DNA of 64,000 nucleotides from Armatimonadota bacterium (GTDB lineage Bacteria; Armatimonadota; UBA10988). Where the stretch lies: positions 7,744-71,743 of the forward strand of contig JACRKZ010000102.1 in assembly GCA_016235455.1 (NCBI GenBank), in the 5' to 3' direction. The stretch's first letter is position 1, and every line of letters starts with the position of its first letter. The notes under the pieces were generated by a model. It did no database searches. It was not told the DNA's origin and saw nothing but the letters and a program-made list of their open reading frames with translations. The position numbers and the translations under genes are program-made. Below, piece after piece: positions 21,501 through 28,064 of this stretch.

Positions 21501-22046
21501 CCATTGGGCGGTGCCGACCTGCTTGCCATCGAGGTAGGTGGTCACCGTGGGCCGCGCGAAGGTGGCGGCCAGATGGTACCAGCGACCCGGCTCGAAATGC
21601 CCGAGGCCGACGCCGACCTCGGTCCAGTCGGTCATGGCCATCGGCGCGCGGCCAGGCTTGCCCATGCGGAACGAGCAGTCCTGGTCGGAGACGAACAGCA
21701 TGAAGCCGCCGGGGCACCAGTTGCCCGTGGTGAGGATGTTGGGGTAACGCCCGCCACGTTCCCAACAGACCCACGCCTCGACGGTCAGCGCGGCGGCACC
21801 ATCGAGCCCGGCCGGACAGGGGATGGACACCCAAGCGCCGTTGCCACCGAAGCGCAGTGCCGTGCCAAACGCGCCGCGCACCCACGCCGCGCCGTGGACC
21901 TCACCGTCATTGCCCTGACCCGAGCCGTCAACCACGACGTCACCGGCGCCATCGTCGAAGCGCCAGTCGCCCAGCAGCCCTGGGGTCTGGGCGCGGAGCA
22001 GCCCGCACGCCAGCAGCAGCAACAGAACGGCGCTCCGGTTGGCCAT
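18573..22046 (-). CDS. Large secreted LamG (concanavalin-like) domain protein, probable glycan-active enzyme (1157 aa)
   Basis: Track ORF trimmed to ATG 22046 (AGGAGGG 6 nt upstream), giving MANRSAVLLLLLACGLLRAQ. N-terminal LamG pattern: LLGDWRFDDGAGDVVVDGSGQGNDGEVHGAAW ... GLIDEVKLYNRALTPEQV. The rest is large and unassigned. Confidence 0.75.
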   Translation of the reverse strand: MANRSAVLLLLLACGLLRAQTPGLLGDWRFDDGAGDVVVDGSGQGNDGEVHGAAWVRGAFGTALRFGGNGAWVSIPCPAGLDGAAALTVEAWVCWERGGRYPNILTTGNWCPGGFMLFVSDQDCSFRMGKPGRAPMAMTDWTEVGVGLGHFEPGRWYHLAATFARPTVTTYLDGKQVGTAQWDYPVGATGDLQVGRWAGEQPGHTGLIDEVKLYNRALTPEQVLADYRAGAPQRTSVAYAPMPTVPAKPAVTLETRSARLLLDQRGRVVGLVDRATGRDHGGQPAVDFVSIRRGGTTFRPSACGYRDGVLSFTFGRSGVSARVKVTDRGRYLVCELLSVSDPQVEQVVFGRVAFAGAKRSSASVAWAVNADFAAATVPLNLQVEAAVQGGEPAVLTPRCERRYGLVGAKVALVACPQAAIRSVLQDVVRAEGLPYSPLGGPFALDAPENRGSYVFATISEANVDEWIALARRGGFAEIHFHPWWRTMGHYEPNPALFPHGLAGLAQVVAKVHAAGLKAGMHTLTGCIQVDDPWVAPVPDKRLAKDAHFTLAGDIGPNDKVIPTVERPEGLETFWSDMSTGNTIQIGDEIIAYSGIASQPPYGFNGCTRGRWGTRPAAHAQGDATDHLLASYCCYIPDEGSTLVDELAARIAEVYNTCGFDMIYMDGSEGMKTAHAVAVMKQAIFRRLKGRVLVESSSGSWGAWPFHSRVGAWDHPLWGYNRFTDLHCAELATYATGEMLPGHMGWWVLNGPSADHAGMFPEDMEYFAGKCLGWDHSSSLQGIEAGPTPPNARQDEYLALLGRYERLRLDRAFAPQVLARLRAPGEQFRLAPAAGGAWQLRPTDYAHHRVTALDDGSGRWQVINRHAAQPLRLRIEALYAVQPYDSPDGVLVTDFTRPERFTPQAAGATQSLTTATEPARAGSVSGRLTATNTTAERRGAWTKLAQAFTPPLNMSACGALGVWIHGDGKGELLNLQLNNTREDYTAWDDHYVDIDFVGWRYVELLLRERDAQRHQDYFWPYGGACEVGRSPLVRGRVGAFNLWANNLPPGEPITCYLSAVRALPVLKVKLTNPTVTVAGQALSFPVTLESGQYLEYEGTGEATMRDERGAVIAHVTPRGVVPSLAPGTNALTFAAEAPAGVRARAQVTVISEGTPLGK

Positions 22047-22100
22047 GGTCGGCCCTCCTGTGTCGGGTGGAGGCCTTCGGCGGTGGGCTGGCAGGACCTT

Positions 22101-22130
22101 CTGACGGCCGTGCCCGCGACGTGGCATAAT
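22101..22130 (+). promoter_or_regulatory. Candidate sigma70-type promoter with extended -10 for the PtuA-like gene
   Basis: CTGACG (22101-22106), 18-nt spacer, then TGgCATAAT (TG at 22122-22123, CATAAT at 22125-22130). Followed by GGAGG at 22143-22147 and GTG at 22157. Confidence 0.4.
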
Positions 22131-22156
22131 GGGTGGCGGCTTGGAGGCGACGAGCA

Positions 22157-24190
22157 GTGCTTCAGTACCTGCGACTAGAGAACGTCGGGCCGGCGCCCGA
22201 GATGGCGTTCGACTTCGCGCCGCGGCTCAATCTGTTGACCGGCGACAACGGGCTGGGCAAGAGCTTCGTGCTGGATGTCGCTTGGTGGGCGCTGACGGGG
22301 ACGTGGGCCAATGGCATCGCGATCCCTCCGGCGGAGGCTGCAGCCCCAGCGATCGCCTTTCGGCACACGTCTGCCGACGCGGGCGCAACGCGGCCCACGC
22401 TCGCTGTCAAGCGCGCTGACTCGGTTGGGCTGGACTGGCCGCAGCTAGCCAGAGCACGACTGCTCGCACACGGCCATGACCAGAACGAGTGGGGGTCCCT
22501 TCTCCCGGCACTGCTAGAGCAACAGGCAGGCGACACCGACCTGTTGGCGACCGGCCGCGCGTGGCTCATGGGCCGCGAAGACCAGGCGGGCTGGAGCCAG
22601 GTCTGGCAGACGCTGCTAGCCATGCAGCCGGGCGACGCCGACCTGTTGGCGACCGGCCGCACGTGGCTCACCGGCCGCGAGAACCGGGCGGAGTGGGCGC
22701 ACGTCTACCAGACGCTGCTGGCGGCGCAGCCGGGCGACGCCGAGCTGTTTGCGACCGGCCGCGCGTGGCTCGCGGGCCGCGACGACCGGGCGGAGTGGAG
22801 CTACGTCTGGCAGACGCTGCTGGCGGCGCAGGCGGGCGACGCCGAACTGTTGGCGACCGGCCGCGCGTGGCTCGCGGGCCGCGAGGACCGGGCGGAGTGG
22901 AGCCACGTCTGGCGGAGGCTGTTGGCGGCGCAGCCGGGCGACACCGACCTGTTGGCGACCGGCCGCGCGTGGCTCATGGGGCGCGAGGAGCAGGCGGGCT
23001 GGAGCCAGGTCTGGCAGACGCTGCTAGCGACGCAGCCGGGCGACACCGGCCTGCCAATGGGCGAGCTGGCGAAACTACTCGGCCAACTAACCCACGTGGG
23101 CGGACGCGCAGAGACCGTGCACGGCGGCCGAGCGGATCTTGCAGGCGGGTCTGCGTCCAGAGGGCCCCGTGCATCAGCTGGCCCGCAAGACCGCCTTGGC
23201 CTGTACGATCGCGCCACGCAGCAATGGAGGATCGGCAAGGCGTTACCCGGCCACGCTGGCCTTGTCGTCTACATGCGGGTGGACGGTGGGTTCGCAGTTT
23301 GGGATCCGCAGCGCAACGCGGTCAGCGCCGACGGGCCGGGGCGGCCACCAGCGTTTGTGTTCACAGCCGATGAGCTGTGGTCGGGCAACTCAGCCTGCGA
23401 AGGCCTGGTACGCGACTGGACGTCTTGGCAGCGCGAAGGAAACAACGCGTTTCAGCTCCTCTCGAGAGTGCTCGAAGAGCTGGCGCCCGCCGCAGAGGAG
23501 CCGCTGGTGCCCGGTGAGCCGCGACGCATAGCCGTGGGCGACCCCAGAGACTACCCGACTCTGCGGATGCCGTACGGCGAAGACGTTCCGGTGGTGCATG
23601 TCTCCGCAGGCATGAAGCGCATTATCAGTCTGGCCTATCTGCTAGTCTGGACTTGGCGTGAACACCAGGAGATATGCCAGTTGCTCGGGCAGCGGCCAAC
23701 TGACGAACTGGTCCTTCTCGTCGATGAGGTCGAGACGCACCTGCATCCACGTTGGCAACGCTGTATCGTACCCGCCCTTCTGACGGTAATGGACACCATC
23801 ACCGCCGGTTGTCGACTTCAGGCCATCGTGGCCACCCACTCGCCGCTGGTCCTCGCCTCGATGGAAGACACCTTCGACACGAGCACCGACCAGGTCTTCG
23901 ACCTGGAGCTGACCGACGGCCAGGTCGAGGTGCGCCGGCTGCCCTACGAGCCGCTGGGCACCGCCGACGACTGGCTGACCTCCGACGCCATCGGCTTGCG
24001 CTCGGCGCGCGGCTCCTTGGTGCAGGAGGCGCTGCTCGAGGAACTGGCGGCAGCCTGGAACGATCCCGCGCTCACCGAACCGCGTTACCGCGAGCTGTCG
24101 GAGAAGCTGGCGTCGTCGTCCATGCGTGACACCGACCCTGTGCGCAGCCGCTGGCTGGCGCTGGGCGAGCGCCGAGGGTTCGTGTCGTGA
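22157..24190 (+). CDS. PtuA-like ABC/SMC-type AAA ATPase (Septu-like defence) with inserted TPR-like repeat array
   Basis: The track ORF starts at GTG 22133. GTG 22157 (MLQYLRLENVGP) has GGAGG 9 nt upstream. Walker A LLTGDNGLGKS (22241-22264), signature-like VSAGMKRIISL, Walker B VLLVDEVETHLHP (23711-23749), ATHSP. Five 34-aa repeats lie between Walker A and the signature motif. Confidence 0.75.
   Translation: MLQYLRLENVGPAPEMAFDFAPRLNLLTGDNGLGKSFVLDVAWWALTGTWANGIAIPPAEAAAPAIAFRHTSADAGATRPTLAVKRADSVGLDWPQLARARLLAHGHDQNEWGSLLPALLEQQAGDTDLLATGRAWLMGREDQAGWSQVWQTLLAMQPGDADLLATGRTWLTGRENRAEWAHVYQTLLAAQPGDAELFATGRAWLAGRDDRAEWSYVWQTLLAAQAGDAELLATGRAWLAGREDRAEWSHVWRRLLAAQPGDTDLLATGRAWLMGREEQAGWSQVWQTLLATQPGDTGLPMGELAKLLGQLTHVGGRAETVHGGRADLAGGSASRGPRASAGPQDRLGLYDRATQQWRIGKALPGHAGLVVYMRVDGGFAVWDPQRNAVSADGPGRPPAFVFTADELWSGNSACEGLVRDWTSWQREGNNAFQLLSRVLEELAPAAEEPLVPGEPRRIAVGDPRDYPTLRMPYGEDVPVVHVSAGMKRIISLAYLLVWTWREHQEICQLLGQRPTDELVLLVDEVETHLHPRWQRCIVPALLTVMDTITAGCRLQAIVATHSPLVLASMEDTFDTSTDQVFDLELTDGQVEVRRLPYEPLGTADDWLTSDAIGLRSARGSLVQEALLEELAAAWNDPALTEPRYRELSEKLASSSMRDTDPVRSRWLALGERRGFVS
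22529..23038 (+). repeat. Tandem repeat, 5 x 102 bp (in frame, 34 aa each), flanked by degenerate partial units
   Basis: Units start at 22529, 22631, 22733, 22835 and 22937. Consensus: GDxDLLATGRAWLxGRxDxAxWSxVWQTLLAxQP. Units 1 and 5 differ at about 5 of 102 nt, and units 3 and 4 at about 8 of 102 nt (hand comparison). Confidence 0.95.
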
Positions 24191-24753
24191 TCCGTGTCAA
24201 ACCAGCACCAGAACCGCCGTCGTTCGACGAGCGAGTTCGCCAACCCGGCTTGGCGCAGTTGCCTGAGCTGAAGCCGCACTGGCGCCGCTGTCTACCCGAC
24301 CTGCTCGCCGCGTACCAGCACATCTGCGCCTACTCGTGCTTCTACATCCATCCGGTCGCCGGCGCGCGTACCGTCGAGCACTTCGGGCCGAAGTCGGCGT
24401 CGCCCGAGCTGGCCTACGAATGGTCGAACTACCGCCTGGTGTGCAGCCTGATGAACAGCCGCAAACAGGCCTTCGACGATGTCCTCGACCCGTTTGAGAT
24501 CGAGAACGGGTGGTTCGTGCTCGACTTCGTGAATTTTGAGGTCCATCCGGACGTTGAGCTGGCCATTGACCACGCCGCCATCCAGGCCACAATCGACCGG
24601 CTCGGACTCAACGACGCGCCCTGCCCGAGCACGCGCCAGCAGGAGTACGAGATGTATGAGCGCGGCGACGCCTCCTGGCGGCATCTCTGTCGCGTCAGCC
24701 CCTTCGTCGCCGCCGAAGTGGAGCGCCAAGGCCTGCGCCGGGCCGGCGACTGA
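24187..24753 (+). CDS. PtuB-like HNH nuclease-family protein
   Basis: The GTG start overlaps the PtuA-like stop (GTGA, 24187-24190). Core ICAYSCFYIHPVAGARTVEHFGPKSASPELAYEWSNYRLVCSLMNSRKQ resembles the CxYCE...EHxxPKS...W.N...C..CNxxK pattern of the HNH partner found next to such ATPases. Confidence 0.65.
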   Translation: MIRVKPAPEPPSFDERVRQPGLAQLPELKPHWRRCLPDLLAAYQHICAYSCFYIHPVAGARTVEHFGPKSASPELAYEWSNYRLVCSLMNSRKQAFDDVLDPFEIENGWFVLDFVNFEVHPDVELAIDHAAIQATIDRLGLNDAPCPSTRQQEYEMYERGDASWRHLCRVSPFVAAEVERQGLRRAGD

Positions 24754-24769
24754 TTCGTCGGAGACACCC

Positions 24770-25897
24770 ATGCCCAGGCTCAAATGGACCCGCCACGCCG
24801 ACCTGGCCATCTCGCGCGGCTGCTCCGTGCGGCGCGAGGAATACCTCGACCACATGACCTTCGCCGCCAATGCTCGGCCGCTGTTCACCGAGATCTTCGG
24901 CCCGCTCATTGGCCTCAAGGAGGAATGGGAGGAGCAGGGCGCCAGCCCCGAGGAACTCGACTTCTCCGCCTTTCGCTACCGCTGCCCGCTGACCGCGGGC
25001 CTGCCGATCAACACCGGTTGGCTCGGCGGGCCGGCGCCCGAGACGCTGTCCGAGACCGACGACTTCCTGACCTACCGCGATGCCATGGGCCGCACCATGA
25101 AGCTGGCCAAGGGCGTCTCGACGCTGGCGCTGCCCATGGACTGGCCCGTGCGCGGCATGGACGACTGGCTGGCCATCCGGCACCACTACGCCTTCGATGA
25201 GGCTCGTTTCGGCGCCGGCTGGGAGCAGATGGCCCGTGACCACCTGGCCGCCGGCCGCGCCGTGACCGTGTCCCTGCCCGGCGGCTACGACACGTCGCGG
25301 CAGCTCATGGGCGACGAGGCGGCCTGCCTGGCGTTTGCCGACCAGCCGGAGCTGATCGCCGACATCCTGCAGACCGTCGGCGCGATGGTCCAGCGGGTGC
25401 TCGACCGCGTGTCGGCGGCGGTGCAGGTAGACATCCTCAGTGTGCACGAGGACATGGCTGGCCGGAGCGGGCCGATGGTCGGGCCGCGGCAGGTGCGTGA
25501 GTTCATCGCACCCTACTACCGCCGCGTCTGGGACATGCTCGCCGAGCGGGGCGCGCGTCTGTTCGACCAGGATTCCGATGGCAACATGAACCCGGTCATC
25601 GACGCCTTCCTCGACGCGGGCGTCAACGTCATGCACCCCATGGAGCCCGCCGCCGGCATGGACATCGTGCAGGTGCGCCAGCGCTATGGCCGCCGACTGG
25701 CGTTCTATGGCGGCATCGACAAGCATGTGCTGCGCCGCTCGCACGAGGAGATCGACGCCGAGTTGGCGTACCGGGTCCCGCCGCTGCTGGCCTCGGGCGG
25801 GTGCGTGTTCGCGCTGGACCACCGCATTCCCAACGGCACGCCGCTGGGCAACTATCGGTACTATGTGCAGCGGATGTGGGAGATGCTGGGAGATTAG
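24770..25897 (+). CDS. Uroporphyrinogen-decarboxylase (URO-D)-like family protein
   Basis: Track ORF 24536-25897 trimmed to ATG 24770 (GGAGA upstream), giving MPRLKWTRHAD. The URO-D/MtaA-like C-terminal half includes DSDGNMNPVIDAFLDAGVNVMHPMEP. Confidence 0.6.
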   Translation: MPRLKWTRHADLAISRGCSVRREEYLDHMTFAANARPLFTEIFGPLIGLKEEWEEQGASPEELDFSAFRYRCPLTAGLPINTGWLGGPAPETLSETDDFLTYRDAMGRTMKLAKGVSTLALPMDWPVRGMDDWLAIRHHYAFDEARFGAGWEQMARDHLAAGRAVTVSLPGGYDTSRQLMGDEAACLAFADQPELIADILQTVGAMVQRVLDRVSAAVQVDILSVHEDMAGRSGPMVGPRQVREFIAPYYRRVWDMLAERGARLFDQDSDGNMNPVIDAFLDAGVNVMHPMEPAAGMDIVQVRQRYGRRLAFYGGIDKHVLRRSHEEIDAELAYRVPPLLASGGCVFALDHRIPNGTPLGNYRYYVQRMWEMLGD

Positions 25898-26019
25898 GTG
25901 CACCGAGCACGGCCGACTCTCTTTGGTTGTCTCAGAACAAAGAATCCAGAGAACGATGAATCTACATTTACAGCGACGGCACGCATGGCTACATTCGACA
26001 TAGTCGAATGGAGATCGAG

Positions 26020-27606
26020 ATGATATCGTGTCGGACTGGGCTCGCGACGGTGGTTCTGGTCGCGACACTCTCGCCGCTGTCAGCGCAGAACAGCAGCAGT
26101 ACCGGCGGCATCTGCGGCGTCCCGCCGCGCGAAGCCCTGTTGATACTCCGAGAGGCTGGGATGCCGTGGGCACCGTGCAAGGGTTGGGCCGACGTCATGG
26201 CCGCCGGCGGCGGCGAGCCCGGGCTTGACCTGTCGAGCTGGGGCAGCGGACGCACCTGGCGCACGCTCAAGGGCTGGAATCAGGATCTGACGGTCACTCA
26301 GCTCGGTAGCTGGGCGCAGACCTTGCGTGCGCCGGAGCGCGTGGCCAGCATCGAGCGACTCGGAGCCACGGGGCTCCCACAGGCCGTGGACGCACTGGCA
26401 GTGCTGCTTGACTCCAGCGATGTGGGCATCGCCCCGGCCGCAGGCAAGGCCTTGCGCCGACTTGCGGAACGGGGCTTGGTGAAGCCTGACCGGGTGGCGG
26501 ACTGGCTACAGGTCGGCGCCAAGCAAGCCGCAGCGATCAGCGTGGCGGCAGGGGTGAAGGACGAGACTGGCGTTATGGTAGATCGTGTCGCCAGCCTCGT
26601 CCCAGACCTGTTGCTGCGGGCAGACACCACGACCCTGGGTTGTGCGGCGCTGGCGCTGTACCGCAACGGCCGAAGCGAGCAGGTCGATGCTCTGCTCGGG
26701 TCGGGCGCGAAGGGCAGAGACAGGGACCTCGCCTATCAGGCACTCGCCGACATCGCCGGTGACGTGCGCCCCAACGACCTTCACTGGCTGCCCGGCACAT
26801 GGCAGAGCAAGACACGCGCCGATGAGCCTGACGCGTTGGCAGCGGCGGGGCTCCTGCTCCAGGCCAGCCTGGCCGCCCGCGCCGACCCGGCCACCGAGCT
26901 CGCAAGCGCCGCCCTGCTGGACGACCTACTGGCCGCGGACCGACCTGTTTGGCTGCGCGTGCACGTGGCTGACCTGATAGCGCGGCAGGGCCTCCTTGCC
27001 GACTGCCGGCCGCGCCCCGGCGGCGCCACGCTAGGCGAGCACGCCAGCCAGACCCCGGCTGAGATAGTGGCCAGCGGCACGCTGCCAACCGAGTCGATTT
27101 GGTGGCTTGTGTACCACTTCAGTGTGCCCTGCGCGCTCCGCGCGGGGTGGCCACTACCGAACCACACAGGGATCCTCTCATGCAAACCGACGGCAGAGAA
27201 CACCACCTGCGCCGCGCAATGCCGGGCCATCGGCAAGCTGGCCAAGGAGCGAGGTGAGCACATCGTCGCCCGGTACGTCGAGTTGAACGCAGGCACCCAG
27301 CATGCCGCCTGCGGTGTGTTGCTCCGCGACTCATCGTGCGACAAAGCCTGGGATCAGGAGTTCGTGCTCGTTCGCCTGGCCCACACCGCTTGTGCCGAGG
27401 CAAGGACGTTCGCGCGCTGCGTCGAGCTCAACTACGTCAAGCCCGACACGGTCGGCGCCATTGACGTACTTGCATTGTCGTACAGCTGGCACAACGGCAG
27501 GTACGAACTGGTGACGACGGCAAGCGGCGCTGTTGCGCGGAACGCTTTCGCGCGTATGGTCACAAACAATCTCGGCCACCTGAACTGGAAGGAGACGGAC
27601 ACATGA
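26020..27606 (+). CDS. Secreted hypothetical protein, HEAT-like repeat segment plus Cys-rich C-terminal domain
   Basis: ATG 26020 (GGAGA 5 nt upstream; alternative ATG at 26008) gives MISCRTGLATVVLVATLSPLSAQ. HEAT-like IERLGATGLPQAVDALAVLLDSSDVGIAPAAGKALRRL. The C-terminal ~150 aa contain 8 Cys. A lower-GC patch lies upstream. Confidence 0.7.
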   Translation: MISCRTGLATVVLVATLSPLSAQNSSSTGGICGVPPREALLILREAGMPWAPCKGWADVMAAGGGEPGLDLSSWGSGRTWRTLKGWNQDLTVTQLGSWAQTLRAPERVASIERLGATGLPQAVDALAVLLDSSDVGIAPAAGKALRRLAERGLVKPDRVADWLQVGAKQAAAISVAAGVKDETGVMVDRVASLVPDLLLRADTTTLGCAALALYRNGRSEQVDALLGSGAKGRDRDLAYQALADIAGDVRPNDLHWLPGTWQSKTRADEPDALAAAGLLLQASLAARADPATELASAALLDDLLAADRPVWLRVHVADLIARQGLLADCRPRPGGATLGEHASQTPAEIVASGTLPTESIWWLVYHFSVPCALRAGWPLPNHTGILSCKPTAENTTCAAQCRAIGKLAKERGEHIVARYVELNAGTQHAACGVLLRDSSCDKAWDQEFVLVRLAHTACAEARTFARCVELNYVKPDTVGAIDVLALSYSWHNGRYELVTTASGAVARNAFARMVTNNLGHLNWKETDT

Positions 27607-28064
27607 GTGGTACTGCACCGACAGTGATCAGCCGCCGTGCGGGCCGCAAGCGCCTCACCAGCGCTCTCGGCCTGGGCTGCGTCGTTGCGGCGGTCTGCGG
27701 CCTGGCGGCGAGTCTCTATAACCGCGACCACGACATTGTGCGGCTCGCGCAGGCCATCCTGCCAGCCTTCCTGCCCGCGCTCTCGGCCTTGGTGCCACTG
27801 GTGCTGACCCCGCAGAAGGACGACGATGAGCCGCTACCTGATGGGGCCTTGTCGCTGGCCCTGGGTATCTGCGTCATCTACTCGACCGCCTGGTGTGTGC
27901 TGGCCGCGTGCTCCTACACGCTCGATGATCTCGGAGTCGGGCAGCGGCCCCACTTCGACAGCGCCGTGGCGCTGCTCTCAACCATCGGCCAGTCGGTGGT
28001 GGTCGGCATGGTGGTCACGAGTTTGGGCGGCGCGGCGAAGGCCGTCACTCCGCCGGGCAAGTAG
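27603..28064 (+). CDS. Small integral membrane protein (about 4 TM helices)
   Basis: The ATG overlaps the upstream stop (ATGA, 27603-27606). Hydrophobic segments: LGLGCVVAAVCGLAASLY, AILPAFLPALSALVPLVL, LSLALGICVIYSTAWCVLAACSY, ALLSTIGQSVVVGMVVTSLGG. Confidence 0.7.
   Translation: MSGTAPTVISRRAGRKRLTSALGLGCVVAAVCGLAASLYNRDHDIVRLAQAILPAFLPALSALVPLVLTPQKDDDEPLPDGALSLALGICVIYSTAWCVLAACSYTLDDLGVGQRPHFDSAVALLSTIGQSVVVGMVVTSLGGAAKAVTPPGK

What the first reader, a model, noticed from the sequence alone, without database searches (positions are those of the whole stretch)
22101..24753. Septu-like two-gene defence module (ABC-type ATPase + HNH protein) inserted between glycan-utilisation genes
A 677-aa ATPase carries Walker A GDNGLGKS, signature-like SAGMKR, Walker B LLVDEVETHLHP and ATHSP. 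It is followed, with a 4-nt GTGA overlap, by a 188-aa protein with an HNH-type core (VEHFGPKS...EWSNYRL...MNSRK). This ATPase-plus-small-HNH architecture is that of PtuA/PtuB (Septu). The pair is transcribed divergently from a LamG gene, has its own promoter-like TGgCATAAT element, and interrupts an otherwise carbohydrate-focused region, consistent with an accessory island. It differs from the Septu proteins I recall in its repeat insertion and its degenerate zinc-finger cysteines.
Basis: partly seen in the sequence, partly recalled or inferred. Interest (0 to 1): 0.7.

Follow-up and report, generated by a model that had tools for sequence, protein, structure and literature searches.

The report
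Septu defence pair with borrowed sensor repeats
This is a genuine two-gene Septu anti-phage system (an ATPase plus a DNA/RNA-cutting HNH nuclease), ordinary in kind, but its ATPase uniquely carries an inserted block of helical repeats otherwise seen in the sensor arms of bacterial NLR-like immune proteins.

Summary
PtuA is at 22157-24190 (677 aa) and PtuB at 24187-24753 (188 aa). The Septu reading is strongly supported:
- PADLOC models score PtuA at E=4.7e-143 and PtuB at E=3.1e-64.
- The predicted PtuA fold matches solved PtuA chains best.
- Every homologous locus examined keeps the same ATPase plus ~200-aa partner with a 4-nt overlap. One of these lies inside a BREX locus.
- There is no reverse transcriptase or retron RNA, so this is a stand-alone (type I) Septu.

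The new element is a 264-aa in-frame insertion in a beta-hairpin of the ATPase head (residues 72-335).
- It forms six 34-aa helix-hairpin units plus a cap. Five units make a 102-bp tandem DNA repeat.
- The top 120 PtuA homologues and the closest syntenic relative all lack it.
- It is homologous (E down to 2e-209) to the C-terminal repeat arrays of nSTAND5-type NTPases that carry TIR, Fic or nuclease domains.

I read it as Septu with a captured sensor or regulatory array. That function is inferred from one metagenome-assembled genome. The "accessory island" claim could not be tested.

The parts
22101..22130 (+). Promoter-like site: CTGACG, 18-nt spacer, CATAAT with a TG extension
   Evidence: One search found it as a consensus match only. 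Four sites were found in the region against 0.3 expected from shuffles. It lies 27 nt upstream of the PtuA start.
22143..22147 (+). Ribosome-binding site GGAGG, 9 nt before the GTG start
   Evidence: Read directly from the sequence.
22157..24190 (+). ptuA: 677-aa ABC-type (AAA_15/AAA_21) ATPase of the Septu family, carrying an internal insertion
   Evidence: PADLOC PDLC00307 E=4.7e-143, split into two stretches by the insertion. Pfam AAA_21 1.7e-17 and AAA_15 2.7e-11. There is an exact NCBI record, 'AAA family ATPase [Armatimonadetes bacterium]'. The AlphaFold2 core has pLDDT >90. The best fold matches are solved PtuA chains.
22241..22264 (+). Walker A GDNGLGKS (residues 29-36, K35)
   Evidence: Invariant or near-invariant in 41 family members. 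It corresponds to K99 of Ec78 PtuA and K43 of Septu EcB88 PtuA, both required for function (PMC13376987, PMC13096335).
22370..23161 (+). In-frame 264-aa insertion (residues 72-335) in the beta-hairpin after the Walker A helix. It consists of a linker, a helical repeat array and a second linker.
   Evidence: Absent from the 40 homologues aligned with it and from L005; the other listed homologues are too short to hold it. The AlphaFold2 model shows 13 helices at residues 94-314 with pLDDT about 78-88, flanked by segments with pLDDT <50 at 75-92 and 311-339. It is homologous to repeat arrays of nSTAND5-type NTPases.
22427..22528 (+). Degenerate repeat unit 0 (residues 91-124)
   Evidence: 42-49% DNA identity to the other units, but the helix-hairpin is predicted. 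Homology to STAND arrays extends back to insert residue about 17.
22529..23038 (+). Five well-conserved 102-bp / 34-aa units (GDxxLLATGRAWLxGREDRAEWSxVWQTLLAAQP)
   Evidence: Tandem Repeats Finder. Unit-to-unit DNA identity is 81-95%; units 1 and 5 are 95% identical and units 3 and 4 are 92% identical. The unit consensus matches the STAND-type consensus Ll..GR.WL.GREDRpeW.hVWqrLle.
23603..23620 (+). ABC signature-like motif SAGMKR (residues 483-488)
   Evidence: It aligns with the LSDGQR signature (357-362) of Ec78 PtuA (PMC12819146). The family consensus is SAGMRR, and K487 is unique to the window.
23714..23734 (+). Walker B LLVDEVE (D523, E524)
   Evidence: D523 and E524 are invariant in 41 of 41 members. 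E524 aligns with Ec78 PtuA E396, whose E396Q mutation abolishes defence (PMC12819146).
23831..23845 (+). H-loop ATHSP (H561)
   Evidence: T560 and H561 are invariant.
24017..24175 (+). Three C-terminal helices of PtuA (residues 621-673), the predicted PtuB-docking extension
   Evidence: Predicted helices at 621-634, 641-653 and 661-673. In solved complexes, two PtuA C-terminal extensions and three PtuB helices form a nine-helix bundle (PMC12819146). The docking role here is inferred by analogy.
24187..24753 (+). ptuB: 188-aa HNH (beta-beta-alpha-metal) nuclease partner, start overlapping the ptuA stop (GTGA)
24325..24465 (+). HNH core, residues 47-93: C47, C51, H65, N81, C86, N90, K93
   Evidence: C47, H65, N81, N90 and K93 are invariant, and C51 and C86 are at least 90% conserved in 38 homologues. 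H65 aligns with Ec78 PtuB H57, whose H57A mutation abolishes defence (PMC12819146). The H65-N81 spacing of 16 equals the H75-N91 spacing of Septu EcB88 PtuB (PMC13096335).

Best explanation
The locus is a stand-alone (type I) Septu anti-phage system in an Armatimonadota metagenome-assembled genome.

How Septu works in characterised systems (by analogy):
- ATP-bound PtuA, an ABC-type ATPase, oligomerises through its head domains.
- It docks the HNH nuclease PtuB through its C-terminal helices and keeps the nuclease quiescent.
- Infection relieves this control. PtuB then cuts nucleic acid (DNA nicking or tRNA-Tyr cleavage in characterised systems), which stops phage replication at the cost of host growth.

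What is particular here:
- PtuA has acquired an in-frame insertion of about 264 aa. It is an alpha-solenoid of six 34-aa helix-hairpin repeats plus a cap, tethered by two flexible linkers in a surface beta-hairpin of the ATPase head.
- The repeats belong to the family that forms the C-terminal arrays of nSTAND5-type (NLR-like) NTPases with TIR, Fic or nuclease effector domains.
- I propose that the array gives this PtuA a cis-encoded protein-binding surface. It would either recognise a phage component directly or gate PtuA oligomerisation and ATP turnover. That would couple recognition to release of PtuB.

Shown: the identity of both proteins, intact catalytic motifs, the operon structure, the existence, position, fold class and homology of the insertion, and its absence from relatives.

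Inferred: anti-phage activity of this particular pair, the PtuA-PtuB docking mode, and any sensing or regulatory role of the repeats.

Rough probabilities: Septu membership 0.93, the insertion real and translated 0.85, the insertion functional as sensor or regulator 0.35-0.4. The overall confidence of 0.6 is for the statement as a whole, with the sensor role taken as the most likely but unproven reading.
For: Septu identity:
- PADLOC PtuA 4.7e-143 and PtuB 3.1e-64.
- Family profiles hit only PtuA, PtuB and then AriA chains in the PDB.
- The PtuA model matches retron I-A and E. coli Septu PtuA best, then Rad50 and SMC heads.
- Walker A K35, Walker B D523/E524, H561, PtuB H65 and N81 are all present. 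They align with residues shown by mutagenesis to be essential (PMC12819146, PMC13096335, PMC13376987).
- Both proteins have three C-terminal helices, as needed for the nine-helix docking bundle (PMC12819146).
- The gene pair with a 4-nt overlap is conserved in L001, L002, L003, L005 and L006. L003 lies inside a BREX locus.
- No RT or retron RNA is present.

Insertion:
- The 40 homologues aligned with the window protein lack it. The top 120 homologues are all 396-456 aa, too short to hold it.
- The syntenic relative L005 has a complete 411-aa PtuA that matches PDLC00307 end to end.
- It interrupts a loop without loss of PtuA residues and keeps the frame. GC3 within it is 0.87.
- An independent Logan assembly confirms the 3' junction at 100% identity.
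- The helical-repeat prediction has pLDDT about 78-88.
- An exhaustive phmmer search gave 339 hits, the best at 2e-209. Of the 35 top hits, 29 match Pfam nSTAND_NTPase5, and some carry TIR_2, Fic, Mrr_cat or NACHT domains.
- Differences between units fall on predicted solvent-exposed positions while core positions are invariant. Pooled pN/pS is 1.18.

Precedent: Septu PtuA cores are known to gain added elements that change what is sensed, as in the retron type II systems (PMC12819146, PMC12640716).
Against: - This is a single instance in one metagenome-assembled genome.
- No independent assembly covers the 5' junction, and short-read contigs break inside the array. The copy number is therefore uncertain.
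- The closest relative works without the insertion, so it is not needed for the basic system.
- The window PtuA has unique substitutions at near-invariant positions: A373M, Q374R in the putative Q-loop, and R487K in the signature motif. It deviates at 18 of 151 conserved columns against a median of 2. This could mean relaxed constraint, although its insertion-less clade-mates P0002 and P0003 also deviate at 14 each.
- pN/pS of about 1 among units fits neutral drift as well as diversification.
- No subfamily member has been tested experimentally.
- Sequence similarity to validated PtuA and PtuB is remote: NCBIfam equivalogs score far below their cut-offs.
Confidence: 0.6

Rival explanations
1. 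An ordinary Septu system in which the repeat block is a recent, functionally neutral or mildly damaging passenger. On this view a piece of a STAND gene was captured by illegitimate recombination and amplified by unequal crossing-over, with no role in sensing. The PtuA may even be on its way to inactivation.
For: - The insertion is found in one genome only, and the nearest relative lacks it.
- Unit-to-unit DNA identity of 81-95% indicates recent amplification.
- pN/pS of about 1.2 is compatible with neutrality.
- There are unique substitutions at the putative Q-loop (Q374R) and the signature motif (R487K), and the window protein has the highest count of deviations in the family.
Against: - The 2034-nt ORF is intact, with GC3 of 0.87 in the insert.
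- Walker A, Walker B and the H-loop are untouched.
- PtuB shows no deviation at the 53 conserved columns.
- The insertion sits in a surface hairpin with long flexible linkers and is predicted to fold autonomously.
- Repeat core positions are strictly conserved while changes fall on exposed positions.
Confidence: 0.3
2. The insertion is an assembly or binning artefact. On this view a STAND-gene repeat fragment was wrongly joined into a normal 411-aa ptuA.
For: - Short-read Logan contigs of the same organism break inside the repeat.
- No independent contig covers the 5' junction.
- Tandem repeats are a classic source of misassembly, so at the least the number of units is uncertain.
Against: - Two junctions would both have to be in frame and fall in the same loop without loss or duplication of any PtuA residue.
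- Logan contig L007 independently joins the last repeat unit to the PtuA C-terminal half at 100% identity.
- Codon-position GC in the insert fits the PtuA frame.
- No other copy of the repeat exists in the 64-kb window.
Confidence: 0.06
3. A housekeeping or non-defence ABC/RecF-like ATPase with an unrelated small partner, or a different ATPase-based defence system such as PARIS AriA/AriB or OLD/Gabija, rather than Septu.
For: - There are weak hits to RecF (E about 0.007) and SMC_N (E 0.008).
- AriA models score 2.6e-25.
- No other defence gene lies within about 10 kb.
Against: - PtuA models outscore AriA by more than 100 orders of magnitude.
- RecF models are far below their cut-offs (15 bits against 172-386).
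- There is no TOPRIM domain.
- The partner is structurally a PtuB.
- Homologous pairs occur in unrelated contexts across phyla, including inside BREX. That pattern is typical of mobile defence genes, not housekeeping ones.
Confidence: 0.02

Closest known systems
Stand-alone (type I) Septu, PtuA/PtuB, e.g. E. coli Septu (PDB 8EE4, 8EE7, 8EEA) and Septu EcB88
   Same: - A two-gene operon of an ABC-type ATPase and an HNH nuclease.
- Walker A, Walker B, H-loop and signature motifs in PtuA, and the H...N(16)...N motif in PtuB.
- C-terminal helices in both proteins for docking.
- No RT or ncRNA.
   Different: - Only remote sequence similarity to the validated proteins: about 15-20% identity, with profile E-values of 5e-9 for PtuA and 2e-5 for PtuB.
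- It belongs to a compact (~415 aa) PtuA subfamily (PADLOC PDLC00307/PDLC00348) that, as far as I know, has not been tested experimentally.
- It carries the 264-aa repeat insertion, which no other PtuA found here has.
Retron type I-A / type II Septu (Ec78/Eco7, Ec83/Eco4 PtuAB)
   Same: - The same effector pair.
- The best sequence matches in the PDB are these PtuA chains.
- They set the precedent that elements added to the PtuA core (N-terminal extension, helical flap, msDNA-contacting loops) retarget what the system senses (PMC12819146).
   Different: - No reverse transcriptase, no msr/msd RNA and no N-terminal extension.
- NCBIfam equivalogs NF041760 and NF041761 score 53 and 27 bits against cut-offs of 500 and 150.
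- The added element here is a protein repeat array inside PtuA, not a separate RT-msDNA partner.
nSTAND5-type STAND (NLR-like) NTPases with C-terminal 34-aa repeat arrays and TIR, Fic or nuclease effector domains
   Same: - The inserted repeats are homologous to their C-terminal arrays. E-values go down to 2e-209, identity is 45-55%, the period is the same 34 aa and the consensus is the same GRxWLxGREDRxEWxxVWxxLL.
- High unit-to-unit similarity is also seen in those arrays.
   Different: - The window protein has no STAND NTPase domain and no TIR, Fic or nuclease effector fused to the repeats.
- The repeats are internal to an ABC ATPase rather than C-terminal to a STAND NTPase.
- It is therefore not a member of that family. 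Only the repeat module is shared.
PARIS AriA and other AAA_15/AAA_21 defence ATPases (OLD, Gabija GajA)
   Same: The ABC-type ATPase head of the same Pfam families. AriA is the next-best PADLOC and PDB match.
   Different: Much weaker scores, no TOPRIM nuclease domain, and the partner is an HNH PtuB rather than AriB or GajB.

Membership tests
Septu (PtuA/PtuB), type I | PtuA is an ABC-type ATPase (AAA_15/AAA_21) with Walker A, signature, Walker B and H-loop motifs | tested here: met
   Pfam AAA_21 1.7e-17 and AAA_15 2.7e-11. All motifs are present and conserved in the family. The best fold matches are PtuA chains.
Septu (PtuA/PtuB), type I | PtuB is an HNH (beta-beta-alpha-metal) nuclease of the TIGR02646 type with a catalytic His and Asn | tested here: met
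Septu (PtuA/PtuB), type I | The two genes are adjacent, co-oriented and co-transcribed | tested here: met
   GTGA start/stop overlap. The same 4-nt overlap occurs in L001, L002, L003, L005 and L006.
Septu (PtuA/PtuB), type I | Matches to curated Septu profile HMMs for both proteins | tested here: met
   PADLOC PDLC00307 4.7e-143 and PDLC00348 3.1e-64. DefenseFinder was not available.
Septu (PtuA/PtuB), type I | PtuA oligomer docking PtuB through the PtuA C-terminal extension and the PtuB C-terminal helical domain | tested here: inconclusive
   Three C-terminal helices are predicted in each protein. This fits the nine-helix bundle of solved complexes (PMC12819146). No complex prediction or experiment was done.
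Septu (PtuA/PtuB), type I | Protection against phage that depends on the ATPase and HNH motifs | not testable with these tools
   Needs heterologous expression and phage challenge.
Retron type I-A / type II Septu | Adjacent reverse transcriptase and msr/msd ncRNA, and a PtuA with an N-terminal extension | tested here: not met
   No RT among the neighbours. No Rfam family in 20-29 kb. NCBIfam PtuA and PtuB equivalogs are far below their cut-offs. PtuA starts directly with the ATPase strand.
nSTAND5 / NLR-like STAND NTPases | A STAND P-loop NTPase domain | tested here: not met
   Pfam finds only AAA_21, AAA_15 and AAA_23 in the window protein. The insert alone has no significant Pfam hit.
nSTAND5 / NLR-like STAND NTPases | An array of the 34-aa GRxWLxGREDRxEWxxVWxxLL repeats | tested here: met
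   339 hits in the exhaustive search, the best at 2e-209. 29 of the 35 top hits carry nSTAND_NTPase5. The unit consensus and the 34-aa period are shared.
TPR (Pfam clan) repeats | A match to TPR-type profile HMMs | tested here: not met
   No TPR family appears even at E<=1. Only the 34-aa helix-hairpin geometry is TPR-like.
PARIS (AriA/AriB) and OLD/Gabija | An AriA-type ATPase with an AriB TOPRIM partner, or a fused TOPRIM nuclease | tested here: not met
   AriA scores 2.6e-25 against 4.7e-143 for PtuA. There is no TOPRIM domain. The partner is PtuB.
RecF/SMC housekeeping ATPases | Reaching the RecF or SMC family thresholds | tested here: not met
   RecF scores 15.5 bits against cut-offs of 172-386. 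SMC_N scores 16 bits against 40.

The most novel reading that the evidence does not exclude
The inserted NLR-type repeat array is a working sensor. It would bind a phage protein directly and, from its position in the ATPase head, control PtuA oligomerisation or ATP turnover, and so release the PtuB nuclease. Septu would then be converted into a cis-sensing, NLR-like ABC ATPase. Because the 102-bp in-frame units can expand, contract and recombine, the array would also act as a rapidly evolvable specificity cassette. The locus would be natural evidence that sensor arrays are exchanged between mechanistically unrelated immune systems.
Probability: 0.3. Interest if true: 0.75.

Novelty: new variant of a known kind. 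Interest (0 to 1): 0.5.

Why it matters
Septu is one of the commoner bacterial defence systems, but how stand-alone Septu recognises infection is still poorly defined. Retron-linked versions show that elements bolted onto the PtuA core decide what is sensed (PMC12819146).

A PtuA carrying a repeat array otherwise confined mostly to NLR-like STAND proteins would be a natural experiment in sensor swapping between unrelated immune machines. It offers three things:
- A concrete, testable handle, by comparing the system with the insertion against a version lacking residues 72-335, on how ligand binding could be coupled to an ABC-ATPase/HNH effector.
- A first functional context outside STAND proteins for a widespread 34-aa repeat family that has no Pfam model.
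- A possible design principle for engineering new specificities into compact defence systems.

If the insertion proves inert, the locus is simply one more Septu system in an under-sampled phylum.

Tried and rejected
1. Recurrent insertion hot spot. I first inferred from PADLOC model PDLC00270 (627 positions) that other PtuAs carry an insertion at the same hairpin. Scanning the N-terminal 72 aa alone showed that the extra 214 positions are an N-terminal extension. The idea was dropped.

2. Donor search with the word-indexed database. Using the insertion alone returned one weak hit and missed even the parent protein. This was uninformative, so no donor or taxonomic source for the repeats was identified. 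No second copy exists in the window.

3. Synteny test of the "island" claim.
- 80 genome loci with UROD homologues (56-74% identity) and 11 metagenome loci with LamG homologues (63-72%) were fetched.
- None has PtuAB, and none shares the window's gene order. The relatives are too distant to say whether the pair was inserted.

4. An exact look-up of the PtuA protein found no contig on record. The PtuB look-up gave only short Logan contigs that break in the repeat.

5. UROD as a third system gene. This was rejected. It follows PtuB by 16 nt in the window and in L005, but it is absent next to the other family members, and it is widespread without PtuAB.

6. A retron association was rejected.

7. 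PADLOC and Pfam scans of neighbouring genes found no further defence genes.

8. No paper linking PtuA with TPR or repeat insertions was found.


Full report
**Observation**

- ptuA runs 22157-24190. Its GTG start is fixed by homologue N-termini (MLxYLRLENVGP) and by a GGAGG box 9 nt upstream. The product is 677 aa.
- ptuB runs 24187-24753 (188 aa). Its GTG start overlaps the ptuA TGA stop.
- All quoted motifs are present.
- A promoter-like site, CTGACG-18-CATAAT with a TG extension, lies at 22101-22130.
- Tandem Repeats Finder reports a 102-bp unit, 5.1 copies, 87% matches and no indels at 22529-23053.
- The exact proteins exist in NCBI as an 'AAA family ATPase' and a 'hypothetical protein HZB16_16700' of an Armatimonadetes MAG.

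**Identity**

Sequence evidence:
- PADLOC Septu models hit PtuA at 4.7e-143 (PDLC00307) and PtuB at 3.1e-64 (PDLC00348). AriA is next at 2.6e-25.
- Pfam gives AAA_21 and AAA_15.
- NCBIfam retron-Ec78 PtuA/PtuB, TIGR02646 and RecF models are all far below their cut-offs.
- Family profiles built from 41 PtuA and 38 PtuB homologues hit only PtuA, PtuB and AriA chains in the PDB.

Structural evidence:
- AlphaFold2 models are confident. The PtuA core has pLDDT >90 and PtuB has a mean of 89.
- The PtuA model matches retron and Septu PtuA chains first, then Rad50 and SMC heads.

Catalytic residues:
- PtuA K35, D523/E524 and H561 and PtuB H65, N81 and N90 are invariant in the family.
- They align with residues whose mutation abolishes defence in characterised systems: Ec78 PtuA K99 and E396, Ec78 PtuB H57, EcB88 PtuA K43 and D316, and EcB88 PtuB H75 and N91 (PMC12819146, PMC13376987, PMC13096335).
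- C47 is invariant, and C51 and C86 are at least 90% conserved. The cysteine pattern is therefore a subfamily trait, not degeneration.
- Each protein ends in three predicted helices. This matches the nine-helix PtuA2-PtuB docking bundle described for solved complexes (PMC12819146).

**Pairing and context**

- In five other loci from Armatimonadota, Myxococcota, Gammaproteobacteria and metagenomes, the ATPase is always followed, with a 4-nt overlap, by a ~190-220-aa partner that has no Pfam hit.
- In Plasticicumulans the pair sits between the PglX-like methyltransferase and PglZ of a BREX locus.
- No RT, retron RNA or other defence gene is near the window pair.
- The neighbours are a sulfatase, LamG, UROD-family, NPCBM/melibiase-like and D-lyxose isomerase genes.
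- GC3 of ptuA and ptuB (0.82 and 0.84) is somewhat below that of the flanking genes (0.91-0.93).

**The insertion**

Position and absence from relatives:
- Alignment with homologues shows a clean insertion between T71 and about R336. It lies in the hairpin that follows the Walker A helix, and no PtuA residues are lost.
- The best 120 homologues are all 396-456 aa.
- The closest relative is JGI contig L005. It has the same ptuA-ptuB-UROD order, and its UROD is 89.5% identical to the window's. Its PtuA is complete at 411 aa, has no insertion, and matches PDLC00307 in one stretch.

Structure and repeat organisation:
- The model shows 13 helices at residues 94-314 with pLDDT about 78-88. That is six helix-hairpin units of 34 aa plus a cap.
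- These are bounded by low-confidence linkers at 75-92 and 311-339.
- Units 1-5 are 81-95% identical at the DNA level. Unit 0 is degenerate.
- Substitutions between units fall at positions predicted to be exposed, while the core (G1, D2, L5, G9, R10, W12, L13, G15, R16, W22, V25, L29, L30) is invariant. Pooled pN/pS is 1.18.

Homology:
- An exhaustive phmmer search of 1.84 billion representatives with the insertion alone gave 339 hits, 80 of them below 1e-30 and the best at 2e-209.
- Of the 150 listed, 110 are at least 900 aa long, with the repeats in the C-terminal 40%. Of those 110, 99 have a Walker A motif.
- Of the 35 best, 29 match Pfam nSTAND_NTPase5. Accessory domains include TIR_2, Fic, Mrr_cat, NACHT and S1.
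- None of the 150 matches the PtuA-family HMM even at E<=10.
- The repeat has no Pfam or PADLOC model of its own.
- Its consensus and 34-aa period match those of the STAND arrays.

Authenticity:
- Both junctions are in frame, and GC3 in the insert is 0.87.
- Logan contig L007, from an independent per-run assembly, joins the last unit to the PtuA C-terminal half at 100% identity.
- The 5' junction has no independent support, and short-read contigs break in the array. The copy number is therefore provisional.

**Mechanism**

The best-supported reading is a type I Septu that works like the characterised systems.
- ATP-dependent PtuA oligomers hold PtuB in check.
- Infection relieves this, and the HNH nuclease damages DNA or tRNA (PMC12640716, PMC13096335, PMC13376987).
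- The insertion is most plausibly a captured protein-binding array. It would act as a cis sensor or regulator. The precedent is that retron-associated PtuAs acquired added elements that changed what is sensed (PMC12819146).
- This step is inference.

**Cautions**

- The window PtuA has unique changes at near-invariant positions: A373M, Q374R in the putative Q-loop, and R487K in the signature motif.
- It deviates at 18 of 151 conserved columns against a median of 2. Its insertion-less clade-mates deviate at 14.
- PtuB deviates at none of 53 conserved columns.

**Island claim**

This could not be tested. Relatives of the flanking genes at 56-74% identity share no synteny. The one close relative already has the pair next to UROD.

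**Verdict**

The nSTAND-type repeat array inside PtuA is a new architectural variant, seen once. It is of moderate interest until read-level confirmation and a functional test are done.

Noticed in passing
window 26008-27606 (+) and 27603-28064 (+): A 532-aa ORF has a signal-peptide-like N-terminus. It overlaps by 4 nt a 153-aa hydrophobic ORF. Both have lower GC3 (0.80 and 0.83) than the flanking glycan genes and no Pfam, NCBIfam or PADLOC match. They may be another accessory pair of unknown function. Promoter-like sites lie just upstream at 25967-26024.
   Followed up: partly
L003 6001-7940 (Plasticicumulans lactativorans SLWY01000003.1): A PtuA/PtuB pair of the same subfamily is embedded inside a BREX locus, between the PglX-like methyltransferase and PglZ, with BrxC upstream and BrxL downstream.
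   Followed up: partly
L005 (JGI Ga0307786_1031988) compared with window 22157-25897: The downstream UROD-family protein is 89.5% identical between the two organisms. PtuA is only 62-72% identical and PtuB 74%. Either the defence pair evolves much faster than its neighbour, or a diverged allele replaced it by recombination.
   Followed up: partly
window 22529-23038, and proteins P0241-P0390: The 34-aa repeat GRxWLxGREDRxEWxxVWxxLL occurs in more than 300 representative protein clusters, mostly nSTAND5 NTPases but also S1-domain proteins such as P0276 and P0310. It has no Pfam model.
   Followed up: partly
window 23273-23278 (PtuA M373, R374) and 23615-23617 (K487): The window PtuA alone has M-R where 39-40 of 41 family members have A-Q, the putative Q-loop glutamine. 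It has K where 40 of 41 have R in the signature motif. The consequence for ATP hydrolysis is unknown.
   Followed up: partly
window 22044-22127 (- strand): The divergent LamG-domain gene most likely starts at the ATG at 22046 (MANRSAVLLLL..., signal peptide), not at the longest-ORF start at 22127. This leaves a ~110-nt intergenic region that holds the ptuA promoter-like site.
   Followed up: partly
window 24754-24769: Only 16 nt, and no terminator-like structure, separate ptuB from the UROD-family gene. The same spacing occurs in L005. The metabolic gene is therefore probably co-transcribed with the defence pair.
   Followed up: partly
L006 929-2833 and L001 4776-5948: Other members of this Septu subfamily also sit next to sulfatase or enolase-superfamily (MR_MLE) genes, as in the window. 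This may be coincidence, or a shared habitat and genome type.
   Followed up: no
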